Below are positions 4,681 to 9,647 of a stretch of 64,000 nucleotides of DNA, piece by piece (the stretch's first letter is position 1; the number at the start of each line of letters is the position of its first letter). Below the pieces are notes generated by a model. That model ran no database searches and was not told where the DNA came from. It was given only the letters and a program-made list of their open reading frames with translations. The position numbers and the translations under genes were made by a program. The stretch comes from Armatimonadota bacterium (GTDB taxonomy: Bacteria; Armatimonadota; HRBIN16). The stretch is taken from positions 3,296,001 through 3,360,000 of the forward strand of contig OY781964.1 in NCBI GenBank assembly GCA_963677485.1, given 5' to 3'.

Positions 4681-5565
4681 ATGATCAAAAAAGGCATTAT
4701 TCTGGCCGGAGGATCGGGCACACGCCTGTATCCGCTCACTCGGGTGGTCAGTAAACAACTGATGCCCATCTATAACAAACCGCTGATTTATTACCCGCTG
4801 TGCAGCCTATTGCTGGCCGGGATCACCGAGGTTCTGGTGATCAACACCCCTGAGGACAGCGCGCTGTTTCAGAGGCTGTTAGGCGATGGTTCGGAGTGGG
4901 GCATCAAGATCGAATATGCCGTGCAGCCTGCCCCAGAGGGTCTAGCCCAGGCGTTCATCATCGGTGAGGATTTTATCGGCGGTGAGGGCTGTGCGCTGGT
5001 GCTGGGCGACAACATCTTCTTTGGCCACGGTCTGCCCGAGCAGCTTATTAAAGCCACCGCGCAGCCCCAGGGGGCCACTGTCTTTGCCTATTACGTACGT
5101 GACCCTCAGCGTTATGGCGTGGTGGAGTTTGATGCCGATGGCAAGGCCATCAGCATTGAAGAGAAGCCGATCAAACCACGGAGCAACTGGGCGGTGACCG
5201 GCCTCTACTTCTATGACAAGCGCGTGGTGGAGATCGCCAAAAACCTGAAGCCCAGCCCCCGCGGCGAGCTGGAGATTACCGATGTGAATGCCACCTACCT
5301 GCAGATGGGGGAGTTGAGCGTGCAGAAGCTGGGACGCGGGATCGCTTGGCTGGACACCGGTACCCACGAGTCATTACTGCAGGCCGCTGATTTTGTGCAG
5401 ACGGTCGAAGAGCGGCAGGGCATGATGATCTGCTGCCCGGAGGAGATCGCCTGGCGCAAGGGGCTCATCAGCGATGAACAGTTGCGTAAACTGGCCGCTC
5501 CGCTGGCGAAGAACGACTACGGCCACTATCTACTAGAGATGGTCGACAGGGGGATACACGGATGA
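4681..5565 (+). CDS. rfbA: glucose-1-phosphate thymidylyltransferase
   Basis: [43 protein letters not shown]. Confidence 0.97.
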
Positions 5566-6113
5566 ACATCATCGAAACGCCCATCCCCGGTGCCGTGGTG
5601 ATTGAGCCGAAAGTGTTCGGTGACGCCCGTGGGTTCTTCTTTGAGAGCTACAGCCAGCAGCGGTATTCGGAACACGGTCTGAACGTGTCGTTCGTGCAGG
5701 ACAATGTCTCCTTCAGCCGCCGCGGTGTGTTGCGAGGTCTGCACTTTCAAAAGCCGTTTACTCAGACCAAACTTGTACAGGTGCTGCAGGGCGAGGTTTT
5801 TGATGTGGCGGTGGACTTGCGCGTGAGCTCGCCGGCGTTCGGAAAGTGGCATGGCGTGCTGCTCACCGCAGAGGCACACAACCAGTTCTACGTGCCGCAA
5901 GGATGCGCCCACGGCTTTGTGGTGCTCAGCGAAACCGCGCTGTTCAGCTACAAGTGCGATGATTACTACCATCCCGAGTGCGAGGGCGGCGTCATCTGGA
6001 ACGACCCCGAGATCGGCATTATCTGGCCCATCACCGACGTCCAGCTCAGCGAGAAGGACACCAAGCTGCCGCGCTTGAGTCAATTGCCAACGGAGCGGCT
6101 GTTCCGGTTTTAG
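5562..6113 (+). CDS. rfbC: dTDP-4-dehydrorhamnose 3,5-epimerase
   Basis: [40 protein letters not shown]; ATGA overlap with rfbA. Confidence 0.96.
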
Positions 6114-6280
6114 GGGATTCATCTCACGCGGCACCGCAGGTGACGACGCGGAGGGGGTTTTATCCACAGATTACGCAGATTGCGCAGATTAGGTAGTGTC
6201 CGGGCGGTTTTTCGGCACACACGCGCTTCGACAATACAGGTAAATGGATATACGGTAAGGTTTGTAGATACTGTGGCTTT

Positions 6281-6286
6281 TGTCAA
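6281..6286 (-). promoter_or_regulatory. -35 box (TTGACA) at the IS right end; half of the circle-junction promoter
   Basis: In the excised circle the junction reads TTGACA-aaagccacagtatctag (17 nt)-TACGCT, pointing into the bridge RNA and recombinase. Confidence 0.8.
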
Positions 6287-6538
6287 GTCCCCAGGGGCAA
6301 ATCTGGGGATTTGGACCTGAATATCAGACACTGGCTCTAGACCACGTAGAATAACGTTAATGTGATGTTTGTGGCATATAGACCAAACCTGGATCCGCGA
6401 CAGAAACAGGCTCAGATGGCATCAGTTGGTCCGTAGCACCTCACATGACGCTCGGAGTCGCGAACGGACGTGCGACATCTTCGTGGCTTCGAAAGATATC
6501 GTTATGCTTCGATGCGTGCTATCGGCAGACTGCCGCAG

Positions 6539-7831
6539 CTAGGATACTGGTGTCAGAACCCTCGGTTTGTTGCCCACCCGACTGCGCGATGGCCGGTTTC
6601 GGGATGCGGGCCGACCACCGCCGGCAGGAGTGGGCTCATTGGTGGGATTTCCATCCACGCATCCCCGTCTTGGAACGCTCACGTCCAGCCCAGGATCATT
6701 GCCTACACCGGCTATATCATGGGCCGCTCCGGCACGATCCTGGACATGTCCGTTCGCGTCGGTCAGCGGTTGCTGGTTGGCCGCATTTGAAGCTTGTTCG
6801 ATGCCGAAGTTTGGATCATATGGCTGACGGCTGATTAATACCGACCACATGAGCACCAGCTGCTTGCGCATGATTGCGCGCCGGACAACTCGCTTGGACT
6901 TCGGTTTCTTATTGGGATTCTTTACCAAATTCGGATGCTGCAGTTCCTTCACGAAGTCGTGCATGCTCTGGCCAAGCTTTTTCGACTTACCGTTGACCAT
7001 CTTCACCACAGTGCTCGATCCACAGTAGAGTAATGTCCGCATATATCGGTCACCCATCTTGGATATGGAGCCGTCGTATGTCTTGCAGCTTCCTGACCGT
7101 TGCGGGCAGGGGTTCATTCCGAAATAGCGCGCGACCGCTTTCGATGTTTCAAATCGTTTAGCATCACCGATTTTCGCAAGGAAATAGCTTGCTGTGACGT
7201 CGCCGATACCCGGAATGCTCTTCAGCAGAGCCATATCTTCGGTCATCTGCGGTGAACTCATCACAAGCTCTTTGATCTGAACATCAAGCTTTTTGATGCC
7301 CATGTCATGAAAAGCGATCATCTCGTCCAGCACTGTGCTCCGCGTAAGCCGACAGCTTTGGCGCTGGGCGATCGCCTGTCTGTGTTGCACCAGCATACGG
7401 CGGTCATTGGTGTAACCAATAAGCGCATCATAGCATGCTAGACGAGGGACATAGAGTGAGACATTGTGACTTTTCACATAGTCAGCGATTAGCACGCTGT
7501 CAGAGCAGTCCGTCTTTTGTTCCCAGCCTTTGGCTTTGCGGTGATAGAGAACCCGTTTTGGCTCCAGTTGGACAGCATCGTGCTGGTGCTCGTAGAGGTA
7601 ATCAAGCAGCGGTCGGCTGTAAGGCCCGGTGGCTTCAGCCGCATACAAGGCGGGAGTTCGGGTAAGCTTCTTCACCCATGACAACAACTCCTTGTATCCG
7701 GCCTTGTTGTTCTTGAACTCCTTATGGTCTATCGGCTTGTGCGATGAACCTAATACAGACGCGTCAAACGTCAATTTCGAGATGTCGATCCCGACATAAT
7801 GGATGTAGATTTTGTCTTCAACTTCGTGCAT
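6539..7831 (-). CDS. IS110 family DEDD recombinase/transposase with a low-complexity C-terminal tail
   Basis: YVGIDISK, AEATGPY and KTDCSD (DEDD tetrad), SIPGIG, and QRSGS (Tnp-domain serine). Start moved to ATG 7831, which has a GGAG RBS. Confidence 0.95.
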   Translation of the reverse strand: MHEVEDKIYIHYVGIDISKLTFDASVLGSSHKPIDHKEFKNNKAGYKELLSWVKKLTRTPALYAAEATGPYSRPLLDYLYEHQHDAVQLEPKRVLYHRKAKGWEQKTDCSDSVLIADYVKSHNVSLYVPRLACYDALIGYTNDRRMLVQHRQAIAQRQSCRLTRSTVLDEMIAFHDMGIKKLDVQIKELVMSSPQMTEDMALLKSIPGIGDVTASYFLAKIGDAKRFETSKAVARYFGMNPCPQRSGSCKTYDGSISKMGDRYMRTLLYCGSSTVVKMVNGKSKKLGQSMHDFVKELQHPNLVKNPNKKPKSKRVVRRAIMRKQLVLMWSVLISRQPYDPNFGIEQASNAANQQPLTDANGHVQDRAGAAHDIAGVGNDPGLDVSVPRRGCVDGNPTNEPTPAGGGRPASRNRPSRSRVGNKPRVLTPVS

Positions 7832-7861
7832 GTGGTAATCTCCAGTTGGTAGTGATTGATG

Positions 7862-8063
7862 GTGCAATCAACCAAATCAGCCTAGCGAACACGGGGTTTT
7901 CTCCCAAGATACTGTTCGATATGGGTTGATTGGGAGAAGGATGCCTATCTACGTCACGGTGTTTTCCACCAGGGGCGGTTCCGGCATCCAATCCTTCTCC
8001 TTCACCCCCAGCTAAGGGGTGAGATTAGCTCCCCGACTGCTTTTGGTGTCCGGGGAGCTCACC
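7862..8063 (-). ncRNA. IS110 bridge RNA (5' hairpins, target-binding loop, donor-binding loop)
   Basis: Hairpins at 8027-8059 and 8002-8022. The target loop is closed by 7933-7942/7991-8000, with guides GAACCGCCCCT (7971-7981) and GTAG (7949-7952). The donor loop is closed by 7865-7873/7924-7932, with guides ACAGTATCT (7907-7915) and CTAG (7882-7885). RNA ends are estimated. Confidence 0.85.
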
Positions 8064-8069
8064 ATATAT

Positions 8070-8075
8070 AGCGTA
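8070..8075 (-). promoter_or_regulatory. -10 box (TACGCT) at the IS left end; other half of the circle-junction promoter
   Basis: Sits 17 nt from the right-end TTGACA only after circularisation. Confidence 0.7.
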
Positions 8076-8077
8076 CT

Positions 8078-8100
8078 AGGGGCGGTTCGAGAACCGCCCT
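8078..8100. repeat. GTAG REP palindrome interrupted by the IS110 (target site)
   Basis: AGGGGCGGTTCGAGAACCGCCCT. The missing GT of GTAG is on the other side of the element (6264-6265). Confidence 0.85.
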
Positions 8101-8433
8101 TCTTGCGTCGAGGGGTAGCCACGCCCCTGGCGGTTGGCATAGGGAATATCATCCACGGATGACGCAGATTACACAGATTAGGTCATGACCGGGGCGGTTT
8201 CTCAGAGCACTATCAAACGCCCTGCAGCCCGTCTCCGGCGCGGTCTGGCGGACAGCCCGTTGCCGATGCCCCTGGCGTCAGGATACCCGTTGACAACCAA
8301 CACTTAAAAGGGTGTAACTAGACAGAGCAGACAAGCATAGCCATATCTCACTTGCGACAAACTAACGACAGCAAAACATCGATCAAAGCTGATCTTTGCA
8401 CCACTTTCAGTAACTACCAGGAGATATATCATT

Positions 8434-9057
8434 TTGAAAAACTTACCTACAGGAACAATCAGGCGTGCAAGAATAATGATCCCGATTGTCGCATTGTGCT
8501 TGATATGGCTCATCTATCATTCGTTGAGTGTACGTATATTTATTGATTTTCCAGGTGGTTATACTCTTTATAACAATGACTATGGCTTGACGATGACATA
8601 TGGATTGAAACCACAAAACAGAGATAGTGATACTAAGAATTGGCCTTATATCATGAGGATCGGCCCTAACATCGGCGGTTATCACGTCTACTCTAATGTA
8701 GTCGTAGGTATTATCACTTCATATGAGAGAGAGGATGATTACATCCGTGTCGGGTTCTCCGATATAGGGTGTGAAAGAAGGAAGGGCTACTTCATCATGG
8801 ATATCATCCACAAGAAAGTCTATGGTGGCCTAAGCAAGCGGGACTGGCTGGAGAAGCTGAAAACATACGGGATCACCACGGAACCAGCGTTGCATGAGCC
8901 CCACTGGTTGGACGAGTACTTCGGCGGAACAAACCATCAGATGCTCCTGGGCGATAGGCGAGTAGCTCCAGAGCATGAAGGATTCTGCCCTCGCTTGCTG
9001 GAAGCAGTTAATTGTGTTGGGATAACCATACTGTGCTATGGCCATATGACCGCCTAA
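8434..9057 (+). CDS. membrane-anchored DUF3997-like protein, copy 1 (C-terminus frameshifted relative to copy 2)
   Basis: N-terminal hydrophobic segment, then DFPGGYTL, IGPNIGGY and GYFIMDI...VYGGLSK; paralog of 9090-9647. Start codon uncertain. Confidence 0.6.
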   Translation: MKNLPTGTIRRARIMIPIVALCLIWLIYHSLSVRIFIDFPGGYTLYNNDYGLTMTYGLKPQNRDSDTKNWPYIMRIGPNIGGYHVYSNVVVGIITSYEREDDYIRVGFSDIGCERRKGYFIMDIIHKKVYGGLSKRDWLEKLKTYGITTEPALHEPHWLDEYFGGTNHQMLLGDRRVAPEHEGFCPRLLEAVNCVGITILCYGHMTA

Positions 9058-9089: not shown

Positions 9090-9647
9090 ATGTACAAAAA
9101 AGGCTCTATCATACGCAGGTGGGTTGTCGCGTTAGTCGTGGTAATCGCACTGTCATTAGGTGCCTTCCTGTTTTTATTTGAAGGGTATTTACATGAGCAT
9201 TACGTCATTGAGCTTCCAGGGGGGTATCGATGCCGGAACAACAACTTCTCCGGCGTCACTCCTGCTTTGATGGGTGTGATTATTGAACTCTACCAAGATC
9301 AAGCCTCTGTTATAAATTACGACCAATTAAAACTTAAGGTAGGACCTAATGTGAACGGTTATTGTGTTTACTCCAACACAATAGTTGGGATCGTAACGAT
9401 GCGGAGAAACAAGGATATATCAGCATATGATGCAATACATAATTTTACTATTCAAATATCTGAAATGCGACCTGGCTATTTCATCATCGACCTTCATACG
9501 AAACGTATTTTCGGCGGCCTTAGCAAGCGGGACTGGCTGGCGAAGCTCAAAACATACGGGATCACCACGGAACCAGCGTTGCATAAACCACACTGGATGG
9601 ACGAGTATCGAGGGTGGAATAAACCGGTGGACGTTCCTGCCCGATAA
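9090..9647 (+). CDS. membrane-anchored DUF3997-like protein, copy 2
   Basis: TM helix, then ELPGGY, VGPNVNGY and GYFIIDL...IFGGLSK. The 3' end is nearly identical to copy 1 at the DNA level. Confidence 0.65.
   Translation: MYKKGSIIRRWVVALVVVIALSLGAFLFLFEGYLHEHYVIELPGGYRCRNNNFSGVTPALMGVIIELYQDQASVINYDQLKLKVGPNVNGYCVYSNTIVGIVTMRRNKDISAYDAIHNFTIQISEMRPGYFIIDLHTKRIFGGLSKRDWLAKLKTYGITTEPALHKPHWMDEYRGWNKPVDVPAR

What the first reader, a model, noticed from the sequence alone, without database searches (positions are those of the whole stretch)
6266..8079. Intact IS110 bridge-recombinase system whose RNA guides match its own donor ends and a REP target
Seen: the ~200-nt non-coding left end folds into two stem-closed internal loops, each with a central GAAAA hairpin. 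Loop 1 carries GAACCGCCCCT, an 11/11 match to the left flank plus CT core, and GTAG, the reverse complement of core plus right flank (CTAC). Loop 2 carries ACAGTATCT, a 9/9 match to the element right end plus core, and CTAG, the reverse complement of core plus left-end start. Known: this is the target-binding/donor-binding loop layout of the IS621 bridge RNA. As I recall, IS621 also has a CT core, the donor sequence ACAGTAT and REP targets. Inference: a probably distant ortholog that kept the donor guide but reprogrammed the target guide to this genome's GTAG REP, and a candidate programmable recombinase.
Basis: partly seen in the sequence, partly recalled or inferred. Interest (0 to 1): 0.88.

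Follow-up and report, generated by a model that had tools for sequence, protein, structure and literature searches.

The report
Active IS110 bridge-RNA insertion sequence
This is an intact, recently active IS110-family insertion sequence whose own guide RNA matches its ends and the repeated hairpin it inserts into: a new example of a mechanism known since 2024, with one unexplained extra RNA hairpin near its 3' end.

Summary
Window 8079..6266 (minus strand) is a 1,814-bp IS110-group element bounded by CT. Its 248-nt left end folds into a 5' stem-loop and two stem-closed internal loops. Loop 1 carries GAACCGCCCCU (11/11 to left flank plus core) and GUAG. Loop 2 carries ACAGUAUCU (9/9 to right end plus core) and CUAG. 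The genome holds 12 near-identical copies, all at ...CGCCC|CT...CT|A(C/T), mostly at the foot of one REP hairpin. Six of the seven perfect target sites are occupied. Four related elements carry different target guides, and each fits its own flank (three exactly, two at 8/9). The recombinase has both IS110 domains and the D-E-D-D/Ser residues, with IS621 as its nearest solved relative (about 30% identity). One feature is unusual. This rare clade carries about 550 extra 3' bases, including a conserved 130-nt sense-strand hairpin. The hairpin lies inside the codons of a roughly 90-residue tail that is predicted disordered and has no relatives elsewhere. Its function is unknown. No RNA or recombination data exist for this organism.

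The parts
6266..8079 (-). Whole IS110-group element ('IS-A'), 1,814 bp counting the CT at both ends
   Evidence: Twelve copies in the genome with identical ends. No terminal inverted repeat among the 6 inverted pairs found.
8080..8099 (-). REP hairpin GGGCGGTTC-TC-GAACCGCCC. Its 3' arm is the left target, directly 5' of the CT core.
   Evidence: The genome has 78 hairpins of this pattern.
8078..8079 (-). Left CT core
8070..8075 (-). TACGCT, a -10-like hexamer. It lies 17 nt from the right-end TTGACA only after the ends are joined in a circle.
   Evidence: The same spacing occurs in 5 of 5 clade elements. No sigma-70-like site was found on this strand in the integrated state.
8017..8064 (-). 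5' stem-loop of the bridge RNA
   Evidence: z -4.24, 0 of 200 shuffles. Compensatory changes at 4 pairs.
7933..8001 (-). Target-binding loop module: closing stem, 11x11 internal loop, central hairpin
7971..7981 (-). Left target guide GAACCGCCCCU (equals the top strand of left flank plus core)
   Evidence: Left-flank 7-mer matches: 7/7 in 6 of 12 copies, 6/7 in 5, 4/7 in 1.
7947..7952 (-). Right target guide GUAG (pairs CT-AC), followed by AU, which can pair donor positions 6-7 (A,T) like the IS621 handshake guide A81/U82
   Evidence: Right flank is AC in 11 of 12 copies. Handshake rule from passages of PMC11208158.
7862..7932 (-). Donor-binding loop module
7907..7915 (-). Left donor guide ACAGUAUCU (equals right end plus core)
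7881..7885 (-). Right donor guide CUAG (pairs CT-AG of the left end), followed by G, which can pair target position 7 (C)
   Evidence: The guide changes with the left-end sequence in the sister elements (CTTGTA paired by UACAAG).
6539..7831 (-). Recombinase gene, 430 aa. GGAG lies 8 nt upstream of the ATG. Residues D16, E66, D108, D111, S257.
6542..6808 (-). Codons of the clade-specific C-terminal tail (residues about 342-430)
   Evidence: Conserved in 7 relatives. One hit only among 1.84 billion representatives. pLDDT 22-34 with no secondary structure. No third-codon-position excess of variation.
6651..6780 (-). Conserved 130-nt imperfect hairpin on the sense strand, function unknown
   Evidence: The covariance model finds it only in the 14 copies of this clade in the genome and in none of 99 more distant IS110 loci.
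6268..6538 (-). 3' non-coding region. A hairpin at 6309-6288 lies just upstream of the -35 box.
6281..6286 (-). TTGACA, -35 box of the predicted circle-junction promoter
   Evidence: Invariant in 5 of 5 clade elements
6266..6267 (-). Right CT core

Best explanation
This is an autonomous IS110-group insertion sequence that moves by bridge-RNA-guided recombination, as IS621 does.

Inferred cycle. The element excises as a circle, joining right end to left end at one CT. The junction places the right-end TTGACA 17 nt from a left-end TA(C/T)GCT hexamer. The resulting transcript carries a bridge RNA of about 200 nt followed by the recombinase mRNA.

In the RNA, the target loop pairs with the 3' arm of a REP hairpin plus CT (left guide, bottom strand) and with CT-AC (right guide, top strand). 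The donor loop pairs in the same way with ACAGTAT-CT and CT-AG of the circle junction. Recombinase dimers with the DEDD and Ser active sites exchange strands at the CT core and insert the element at the foot of the REP hairpin.

Shown here: the anatomy, the guide-to-flank and guide-to-end matches, their co-variation across five elements, the site specificity of 12 copies, and the protein family. Inferred by analogy: transcription, circle formation and catalysis.

The extra 3' hairpin is most likely a cis-acting RNA element of the recombinase transcript (stability, processing or translation control). That part is a guess.
For: 1. Site specificity. Twelve copies are 99-100% identical. Ten are full length; two share a 16-bp frameshifting deletion; only 6 single-base differences exist. 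All are flanked ...CGCCC|CT...CT|A(C/T), and 10 of 12 sit at the hairpin GGGCGnTTCnCGAAnCGCCC. Left-flank 7-mer against the guide: 7/7 in 6 copies, 6/7 in 5, 4/7 in 1. Right flank is AC in 11 of 12.

2. Saturation. The present genome has one unoccupied perfect GAACCGCCCCTAC site against 6 occupied ones. About 19 one-mismatch sites of the form GAAnCGCCCCTAC are free against 4 occupied.

3. Co-variation. Four related elements carry other left target guides, each close to its own flank.
- The same-genus genome (OW818647.1 = G001): GGGUCAUCCCU against flank GGGTCATCC-CT. Left-flank 7-mer is 7/7 in 6 of the 8 copies tabulated (9 loci were fetched) and 6/7 in 2.
- IS-B of this genome: the guide's last 9 bases, CGCGCCCCU, match 9/9 at one copy and 7/9 at the other.
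- L096 and L098: 8/9 each.
- The right donor guide changes with the left-end start (CUAG with CTAG; UACAAG or AUACAAG with CTTGTA(T)).

4. Structure. RNAalifold on the five left ends gives 5' stem-loop, target module and donor module: 81 pairs, 14 with compensatory change.

5. Protein..

6. Handshake positions fit the IS621 rule.

7. Junction promoter geometry is conserved in 5 of 5 elements.

8. Weak hint of expression in relatives. RNA-library contigs of 4 of 4 laid metatranscriptomes (4 studies) cover the left end 7860-8102. In X19 the left-end contig has depth 19.8 against 2.0 for its recombinase contig.
Against: - No RNA, circle-junction or recombination data exist for this organism. The metatranscriptome contigs come from 90-99% similar relatives, may contain DNA, and cannot show ends or strand.
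- No Rfam family matches the left end, at E up to 1 or up to 10. This may only mean that no such model exists there.
- No promoter-like site on the element strand in the integrated state. The junction -10 is weak (3/6 here, 4/6 in the sisters).
- The donor module's fold is only modestly better than shuffles (9 of 200 as good), and its MFE pairs part of the loop.
- The right guides are only 4 nt.
- In the IS-B group the base of the left donor guide opposite the core T is A, not U, and the OW element has a mismatch at donor position 7.
- Co-variation rests on five elements that form two deep groups.
- The window copy has Arg318 where 10 of 12 copies and all relatives have Cys. The effect is unknown.
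Confidence: 0.9

Rival explanations
1. The element is an IS110 transposon, but the left-end matches are passive. They would be a captured fragment of the REP target and a copy of the element's own end, and the protein alone would choose the site.
For: The guide-flank repeat extends to 13 of 14 bases across the junction (D1), as a captured junction might. By chance, 9 of 2,000 shuffles give both long matches somewhere.
Against: The matches sit on the correct sides of two stem-closed loops, in the IS621 order and strand sense. They change in step with flank and end in four other elements that target different REP families. The handshake bases also fit. For IS621, the guides are shown experimentally to set specificity (PMC11208160, passages).
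Confidence: 0.03
2. The element is a bridge-RNA IS in design, but this copy or the whole set is now inactive: a relic of a past burst.
For: Two of 12 copies carry a frameshifting 16-bp deletion. The window copy and one other have Arg318 instead of the clade's Cys. No expression data exist. Six of 7 perfect sites are already filled.
Against: Ten of 12 copies have the full 430-codon frame, and only 6 single-base differences occur in 12 copies. That fits very recent movement. The catalytic residues are intact. The element DNA was found in only one of 41 genomes searched: G000 itself. The other genome with a match (same genus) has only the sister type.
Confidence: 0.07
3. The 130-nt 3' hairpin and tail have no function. 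They would be a palindromic insertion carried along, with the tail translated by accident.
For: The tail is predicted disordered and has no relatives outside the clade. More distant IS110s, including IS621 at about 326-328 aa, lack it. The frame stops at different places in the five elements.
Against: The tail is, with the target loop, the most conserved DNA between the two subgroups (0.70-0.75 against 0.35-0.65 in the catalytic core). 94.9% of 235 pair cells are paired against 23-37% in slid controls. There are 6 compensatory pairs against 0-1 in slid controls, and 3 invariant G-U pairs that favour the sense RNA. The model scores 134-162 bits on the sense strand and 41.5 on the antisense. Caveat: the structure was derived from these same five sequences.
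Confidence: 0.3

Closest known systems
IS621 of Escherichia coli (IS110 group; bridge RNA; PDB 8wt6-8wt9)
   Same: Both domains and the aligned D/E/D/D/Ser residues. CT core. Left-end RNA ordered 5' stem-loop, target loop, donor loop. Nine-nt left and 4-nt right target guides. REP target. -35 box in the right end. Handshake AU after the right target guide. Left donor half ACAGTAT-CT identical (papers). The sister IS-B group has all 14 donor bases printed for IS621.
   Different: About 30% protein identity. 430 aa against 326-328. Element 1.8 kb, with about 550 extra 3' bases that include the hairpin. Left end 248 nt. Right donor half AGTAC instead of TGTAT, with a matching guide change. Target is GAACCGCCC-CT-AC of another REP family. 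No DNA similarity to any of 20,395 E. coli records.
ISPpu10 of Pseudomonas putida (IS110; target stem-loop as a second specificity layer, bioRxiv 10.64898/2026.03.19.712850)
   Same: CT duplication. The left target is the 3' arm of a GC-rich REP stem-loop lying 5' of the core (abstract and section 7 read). Here 10 of 12 sites have that geometry.
   Different: Whether the stem-loop contributes to recognition here is untested. Two of 12 insertions lie at sites that lack the REP hairpin pattern. Protein relatedness to ISPpu10 was not measured.
ISCro4 transposase (PDB 9t56)
   Same: Second-best solved relative, E 4.6e-26, same aligned motifs.
   Different: 341 aa. No tail.
ISPpu9 of P. putida with its Ssr9 small-RNA module downstream of the transposase gene (PMC12288879)
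   Same: An IS110-group, REP-targeting element with an extra RNA-related feature 3' of the recombinase gene (abstract, introduction and section 13 read).
   Different: ISPpu9 uses an AG core and forms no junction promoter. Its ssr9 is a separate, separately mobile module with its own end boxes. Here the hairpin lies inside the reading frame, is present in every copy, and is never found alone.
IS1111-group elements with seekRNA
   Same: Same transposase family and RNA-guided logic.
   Different: Those encode the RNA 3' of the gene and have subterminal inverted repeats (PMC12288879 introduction). Here the guide RNA is 5'. No terminal inverted repeat was found. No guide-like match of 8 nt or more to target or donor occurs in the 3' region.

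Membership tests
IS110 family, IS110 group, bridge-RNA-guided recombinase (IS621-like) | N-terminal DEDD RuvC-like domain (PF01548) | tested here: met
   E 1.8e-21, residues 13-158. D16, E66, D108, D111 align with the IS621 motifs and are invariant in 10 sequences.
IS110 family, IS110 group, bridge-RNA-guided recombinase (IS621-like) | C-terminal Tnp domain (PF02371) with the conserved serine | tested here: met
   E 3.9e-22, residues 201-285. SISKMG aligns with RMSKAG of IS621, and S257 is invariant. NCBIfam NF033542 scores 179.8 bits against a cut-off of 140.
IS110 family, IS110 group, bridge-RNA-guided recombinase (IS621-like) | No terminal inverted repeats, and a short core dinucleotide at both junctions | tested here: met
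   CT at both ends in 12 of 12 copies. No terminal inverted repeat.
IS110 family, IS110 group, bridge-RNA-guided recombinase (IS621-like) | Non-coding left end upstream of the gene that folds into a 5' stem-loop plus two internal-loop modules | tested here: met
   (single sequence). (5 sequences, 81 pairs, 14 compensatory). Computational only.
IS110 family, IS110 group, bridge-RNA-guided recombinase (IS621-like) | Target loop: 5' side equals left target plus core; 3' side complements core plus right target; both co-vary with the insertion site | tested here: met
IS110 family, IS110 group, bridge-RNA-guided recombinase (IS621-like) | Donor loop: 5' side equals right end plus core; 3' side complements core plus left end | tested here: met
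   In the IS-B group the base opposite the core T is A rather than U.
IS110 family, IS110 group, bridge-RNA-guided recombinase (IS621-like) | Handshake guides 3' of the right guides | tested here: met
   AU after GUAG fits donor A6/T7. G after CUAG fits target C7. Rule taken from PMC11208158. The second donor-loop handshake base does not pair, pairing at the equivalent IS621 position (167) was added by design.
IS110 family, IS110 group, bridge-RNA-guided recombinase (IS621-like) | Promoter reconstituted at the circle junction | tested here: inconclusive
   TTGACA, 17 nt, then TACGCT (3/6) by pattern. The same geometry occurs in 5 of 5 elements. No circle or transcription start data.
IS110 family, IS110 group, bridge-RNA-guided recombinase (IS621-like) | The left-end RNA is made and binds the recombinase | tested here: inconclusive
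   RNA-library contigs of relatives cover the left end in 4 of 4 runs. Binding cannot be tested here.
IS110 family, IS110 group, bridge-RNA-guided recombinase (IS621-like) | RNA-programmed recombination of donor and target | not testable with these tools
   Needs the plasmid assay.
REP-targeting IS with target stem-loop recognition (ISPpu10-type) | The left target is the 3' arm of a conserved stem-loop 5' of the core | tested here: met
   10 of 12 IS-A sites. The IS-B and OW sites lie on other REP hairpins.
REP-targeting IS with target stem-loop recognition (ISPpu10-type) | The stem-loop itself improves on-target insertion | not testable with these tools
   Experimental feature (abstract).

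The most novel reading that the evidence does not exclude
The conserved 130-nt sense-strand hairpin (6780..6651), embedded in the codons of a disordered, clade-specific tail, is a third functional RNA part of this bridge system. It could be a cis element that sets recombinase mRNA stability, processing or translation, or an accessory RNA bound by the recombinase. Either would give a layer of transposition control not described for IS110 elements.
Probability: 0.3. Interest if true: 0.6.

Novelty: new member of a known kind. Interest (0 to 1): 0.4.

Why it matters
The element is a clean natural illustration of bridge-RNA targeting. It has 12 copies, 6 of 7 perfect genomic targets are filled, and sister elements in the same genome and genus carry guides retuned to other REP families. 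It also adds a divergent recombinase (about 30% identical to IS621) that keeps the IS621 left donor half. That could interest people who collect orthologues for genome engineering. It does not change the picture of how these elements work. The one open point is the conserved 3' hairpin and tail of this rare clade. If functional, it would be a new regulatory or accessory part.

Tried and rejected
- Rfam. No family matched at E up to 1 over 5500-9000. At E up to 10, only noise appeared on the 3' region and left end (mir-140, GadY, mir-34, all far below gathering scores).
- DNA similarity. The element had no match in plasmids or E. coli genomes. The IS-B left end had none in E. coli at E up to 10. 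I therefore could not fetch IS621 DNA for a direct RNA alignment.
- Antisense gene under the tail. Variation in the tail is somewhat enriched at recombinase codon position 2: 25/50 against 17/50 and 18/50 across all five elements, and 17/50 against 8/50 and 6/50 in the IS-B group. That position is the wobble of the + strand ORF 6445-6834. But this frame has a stop in 1 of 5 elements and no family hit. The hairpin explains two-strand openness better, so I rejected it as unsupported.
- Conserved small ORF in the 3' non-coding part. None was convincing.
- Second guide RNA in the 3' region. No match of 8 nt or more to the target or donor strings on either strand.
- Long-range pairing 6459-6472 with 6745-6758. 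The IS-B group did not appear to share it on inspection of the alignment, so I dropped it.
- Literature on a 3' hairpin or C-terminal extension in IS110. Searches and a term search in bioRxiv 10.64898/2026.08.14.744561 found nothing relevant. Supplementary tables of the bridge-RNA papers were closed and may already list this clade.
- RNA-library contigs did not cover 6266-6988. A hole in contigs proves nothing.
Full report
WHAT IS THERE

On the minus strand, window 8079..6266 is a 1,814-bp element bounded by CT at both ends. It has three parts:
- a 248-nt non-coding left end (8079-7832);
- one long ORF, whose ATG at 7831 gives 430 aa (GGAG lies 8 nt upstream; stop at 6539);
- a 271-nt non-coding right part.

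The protein has the two IS110 domains: PF01548 (E 1.8e-21) and PF02371 (E 3.9e-22). It passes NCBI's equivalog model 'IS110 family RNA-guided transposase' at 179.8 bits against a cut-off of 140. Its best solved relatives are IS621 (8wt6, E 2.3e-28) and ISCro4 (9t56), at about 30% identity over residues 10-274. The GIDxxK, EATG, KTDxxD and SK(M/A)G motifs align with IS621. D16, E66, D108, D111 and S257 are invariant in a 10-sequence alignment.

THE OBSERVATION

- GAACCGCCCCT is at 7981-7971 and at the left junction 8088-8078.
- ACAGTATCT is at 7915-7907 and at the right end 6274-6266.
- GTAG is at 7952-7949, and the right junction reads CT-AC.
- CTAG is at 7885-7882, and the left end starts CT-AG.

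The left end folds well below shuffles (z -3.82, 0 of 200). Folded alone:
- The first module (8001-7933) is a 13-bp interrupted stem closing an 11x11 internal loop around a 5-bp hairpin with a GAAAA loop. The long guide is on its 5' side and GUAG on its 3' side.
- The second module (7932-7862) has a 9-bp closing stem and a central hairpin with a GAAAA-containing loop. It is less distinct (z -2.04, 9 of 200 shuffles as good).
- A 5' stem-loop (8064-8017) precedes them (z -4.24).

By chance, 9 of 2,000 shuffles of the interior contain both an 11-mer match to the target string and a 9-mer match to the donor string somewhere. The position and side of the matches are not counted in that figure. The 4-mers are uninformative on their own.

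OTHER COPIES

The genome (5.22 Mb, one contig) has 12 copies at 99-100% identity. Ten are 1,814 bp. Two share a 16-bp deletion in the gene, and there are 6 single-base differences in all.

Every copy is flanked ...CGCCC|CT ... CT|A(C/T). Ten of 12 lie at the 3' foot of the hairpin GGGCGnTTCnCGAAnCGCCC. Against the guide, the 7 bases left of the core match 7/7 in 6 copies, 6/7 in 5 and 4/7 in 1. The right flank is AC in 11 and AT in 1.

The genome has 78 such hairpins. Only one unoccupied perfect GAACCGCCCCTAC remains, against 6 occupied perfect sites. About 19 one-mismatch sites are free against 4 occupied. Occupancy is far higher at perfect guide matches (6 of 7) than at one-mismatch sites (4 of about 23).

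RELATIVES AND CO-VARIATION

The protein is rare. Of 734 hits in 5.8 billion sequences, only seven exceed 40% identity: five at 61-94% and two at 41-42%. The rest are at 34% or less.

DNA was obtained for four more elements of the clade, each about 1.8 kb:
- a second element in the same genome, IS-B (two copies, one split by an IS21-like element);
- an element with at least 9 copies in a same-genus genome (OW818647.1 = G001);
- metagenome contigs L096 and L098.

Their target loops carry different left guides, each close to its own flank.
- OW: GGGUCAUCCCU against flank GGGTCATCC-CT, with the 7-mer at 7/7 in 6 of the 8 copies tabulated and 6/7 in 2.
- IS-B: GUCGCGCCCCU, whose last 9 bases (CGCGCCCCU) match the left junction 9/9 at one copy and 7/9 at the other.
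- L096 and L098: 8/9 each.

Each guide corresponds to the 3' arm of a different REP-like hairpin.

The right donor guide also tracks the left-end start. It is CUAG where the end is CT-AG, and (A)UACAAG where it is CT-TGTA(T).

RNAalifold on the five left ends returns the same three-part structure: 81 pairs, of which 14 keep pairing through changes on both sides. The caveat is that the five sequences form two deep groups, so these are few independent events.

COMPARISON WITH IS621

From passages of PMC11208160:
- IS621 has a CT core.
- Its wild-type target is ATCAGGCCTAC, in REP elements.
- It has a nine-base left and a four-base right target guide.
- The left guides pair the bottom strand and the right guides the top strand.
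- A 177-nt RNA is made from a promoter whose -35 box lies in the right end.

From PMC11208158: the order is 5' stem-loop, target loop, donor loop. Handshake guides A81/U82 follow the right target guide and pair donor A6/T7. G166 follows the right donor guide and pairs target C7.

Here GUAG is followed by AU, and the donor is ACAGTAT. CUAG is followed by G, and the target's seventh base is C.

The IS621 donor is printed as ACAGTAT-CT-TGTAT in PMC13396178. The IS-B group has exactly these 14 bases across its joined ends. The window's element differs at 2 of 14, and its guide changes to match. Among 133 loci fetched, the 9-mer ACAGTATCT occurs only in this clade plus one other locus. The shared donor therefore marks a real affinity with IS621, not a family-wide constant.

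PROMOTER

In the integrated state no sigma-70-like site is found on the element strand. After the ends are joined, an invariant TTGACA (6286-6281) lies 17 nt from TACGCT (8075-8070; 3/6). In the four sisters the hexamer is TATGCT (4/6) at the same spacing. This is the known junction-promoter arrangement. It is inferred here, not shown.

EXPRESSION

No run from this organism could be identified as RNA. Four metatranscriptomes from four studies each hold contigs 90-99% like the element that cover the left end (7860-8102). In X19 the 176-nt left-end contig has depth 19.8 against 2.0 for a recombinase-gene contig. In X20 only the left end is present. Contigs cannot show ends, strand or level, and DNA carry-over is possible. 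This is a weak hint only.

THE UNUSUAL PART

The clade's elements are about 550 bp longer at the 3' side than an IS621-sized element. The ORF continues about 90 codons past the usual YDP end.

That tail is conserved in all seven close relatives. Alone, it has a single hit (the clade's own representative) among 1.84 billion representatives. It is predicted disordered (pLDDT 22-34, no secondary structure; shallow 8-sequence alignment).

At DNA level the tail (6777-6657) is, with the target loop, the most conserved stretch between the two subgroups: 0.70-0.75 against 0.35-0.65 in the catalytic core. Yet it lacks the third-position excess of variation that the core shows. Variable columns by codon position are 17, 25 and 18 of 50 in the tail, against 147, 142 and 223 of about 326 in the core.

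The explanation is an RNA-type constraint. Positions 6780-6651 form one long imperfect hairpin on the sense strand. The evidence:
- It has 47 pairs.
- 94.9% of 235 cells are paired, against 23-37% when partners are slid.
- Six pairs have compensatory change, against 0-1 in slid controls.
- Three G-U pairs are invariant.
- The alifold energy is -57 on the sense strand against -42 on the antisense.
- The single-sequence z-score is -4.08.

A covariance model built from it finds only the 12+2 clade copies in the genome (134-162 bits sense, 41.5 antisense). It finds nothing in 99 more distant IS110 loci. Rfam has nothing like it.

The caveats are that the structure was derived from the same five sequences and that they are related. 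Its function is unknown. I rank a cis-acting role in the recombinase transcript first, a neutral passenger second, and an accessory RNA bound by the recombinase third.

VERDICT

This is an intact, recently active IS110-group element with an IS621-type bridge RNA aimed at this genome's REP hairpin. It is a new member of a known kind, and interest is moderate. The conserved 3' hairpin and tail are the only feature that may go beyond what is described. Searches for it in print found nothing, but supplements of the survey papers were not available.

Noticed in passing
window 6651-6780 (minus strand): A conserved 130-nt imperfect hairpin lies inside the codons of the recombinase's clade-specific tail. 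It has compensatory changes and invariant G-U pairs, and it is found only in this IS clade.
   Followed up: yes
G000:C1:1296594-1298385 (L014 318-2109) and G000:C1:2667671-2672044: A second, 42%-identical clade member (IS-B). Its target guide fits another REP family (GGGCGCGGAGACCGCGCCC). Its joined ends equal the 14-base IS621 donor printed in PMC13396178.
   Followed up: yes
G000:C1:2668304-2670866: A 2,563-bp IS21-like element (539-aa and 262-aa open frames that look like IstA and IstB; named by eye, no family search run) interrupts one IS-B copy. Nine copies exist in the genome.
   Followed up: partly
window 6880: The window copy and one other have Arg at recombinase residue 318. Ten of 12 copies and all close relatives have Cys.
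   Followed up: partly
window about 8140-8180 and about 6160-6190 (minus strand): Another dispersed repeat, ATCTGCGTnATCnGTGGAT (48 copies in the genome), lies on both sides of this insertion. It is seen near 3 of the 12 IS sites.
   Followed up: partly
window 6541-6553 (minus strand): ACCAGTATCCTAG at the recombinase stop codon resembles the donor junction with one extra base. It may be chance or a degenerate alternative end.
   Followed up: no
window 8434-9057 and 9090-9647 (+): Two adjacent paralogous ORFs (207 and 185 aa) share the motif KRDWLxKLKTYGITTEPALHxPHW. They were not identified.
   Followed up: no
window 4681-6113 (+): The ORFs upstream of the insertion (294 and 183 aa) look like rfbA- and rfbC-type dTDP-rhamnose genes (named by eye, no family search run). 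The IS and REP lie just downstream of them.
   Followed up: no
Read laying, window 7953-7981: Relatives in metatranscriptomes differ at left-target-guide positions 7981 and 7978 (guide reading UAAUCGCCCCU). This suggests natural guide variants aimed at the GAATCGCCC form of the REP.
   Followed up: no
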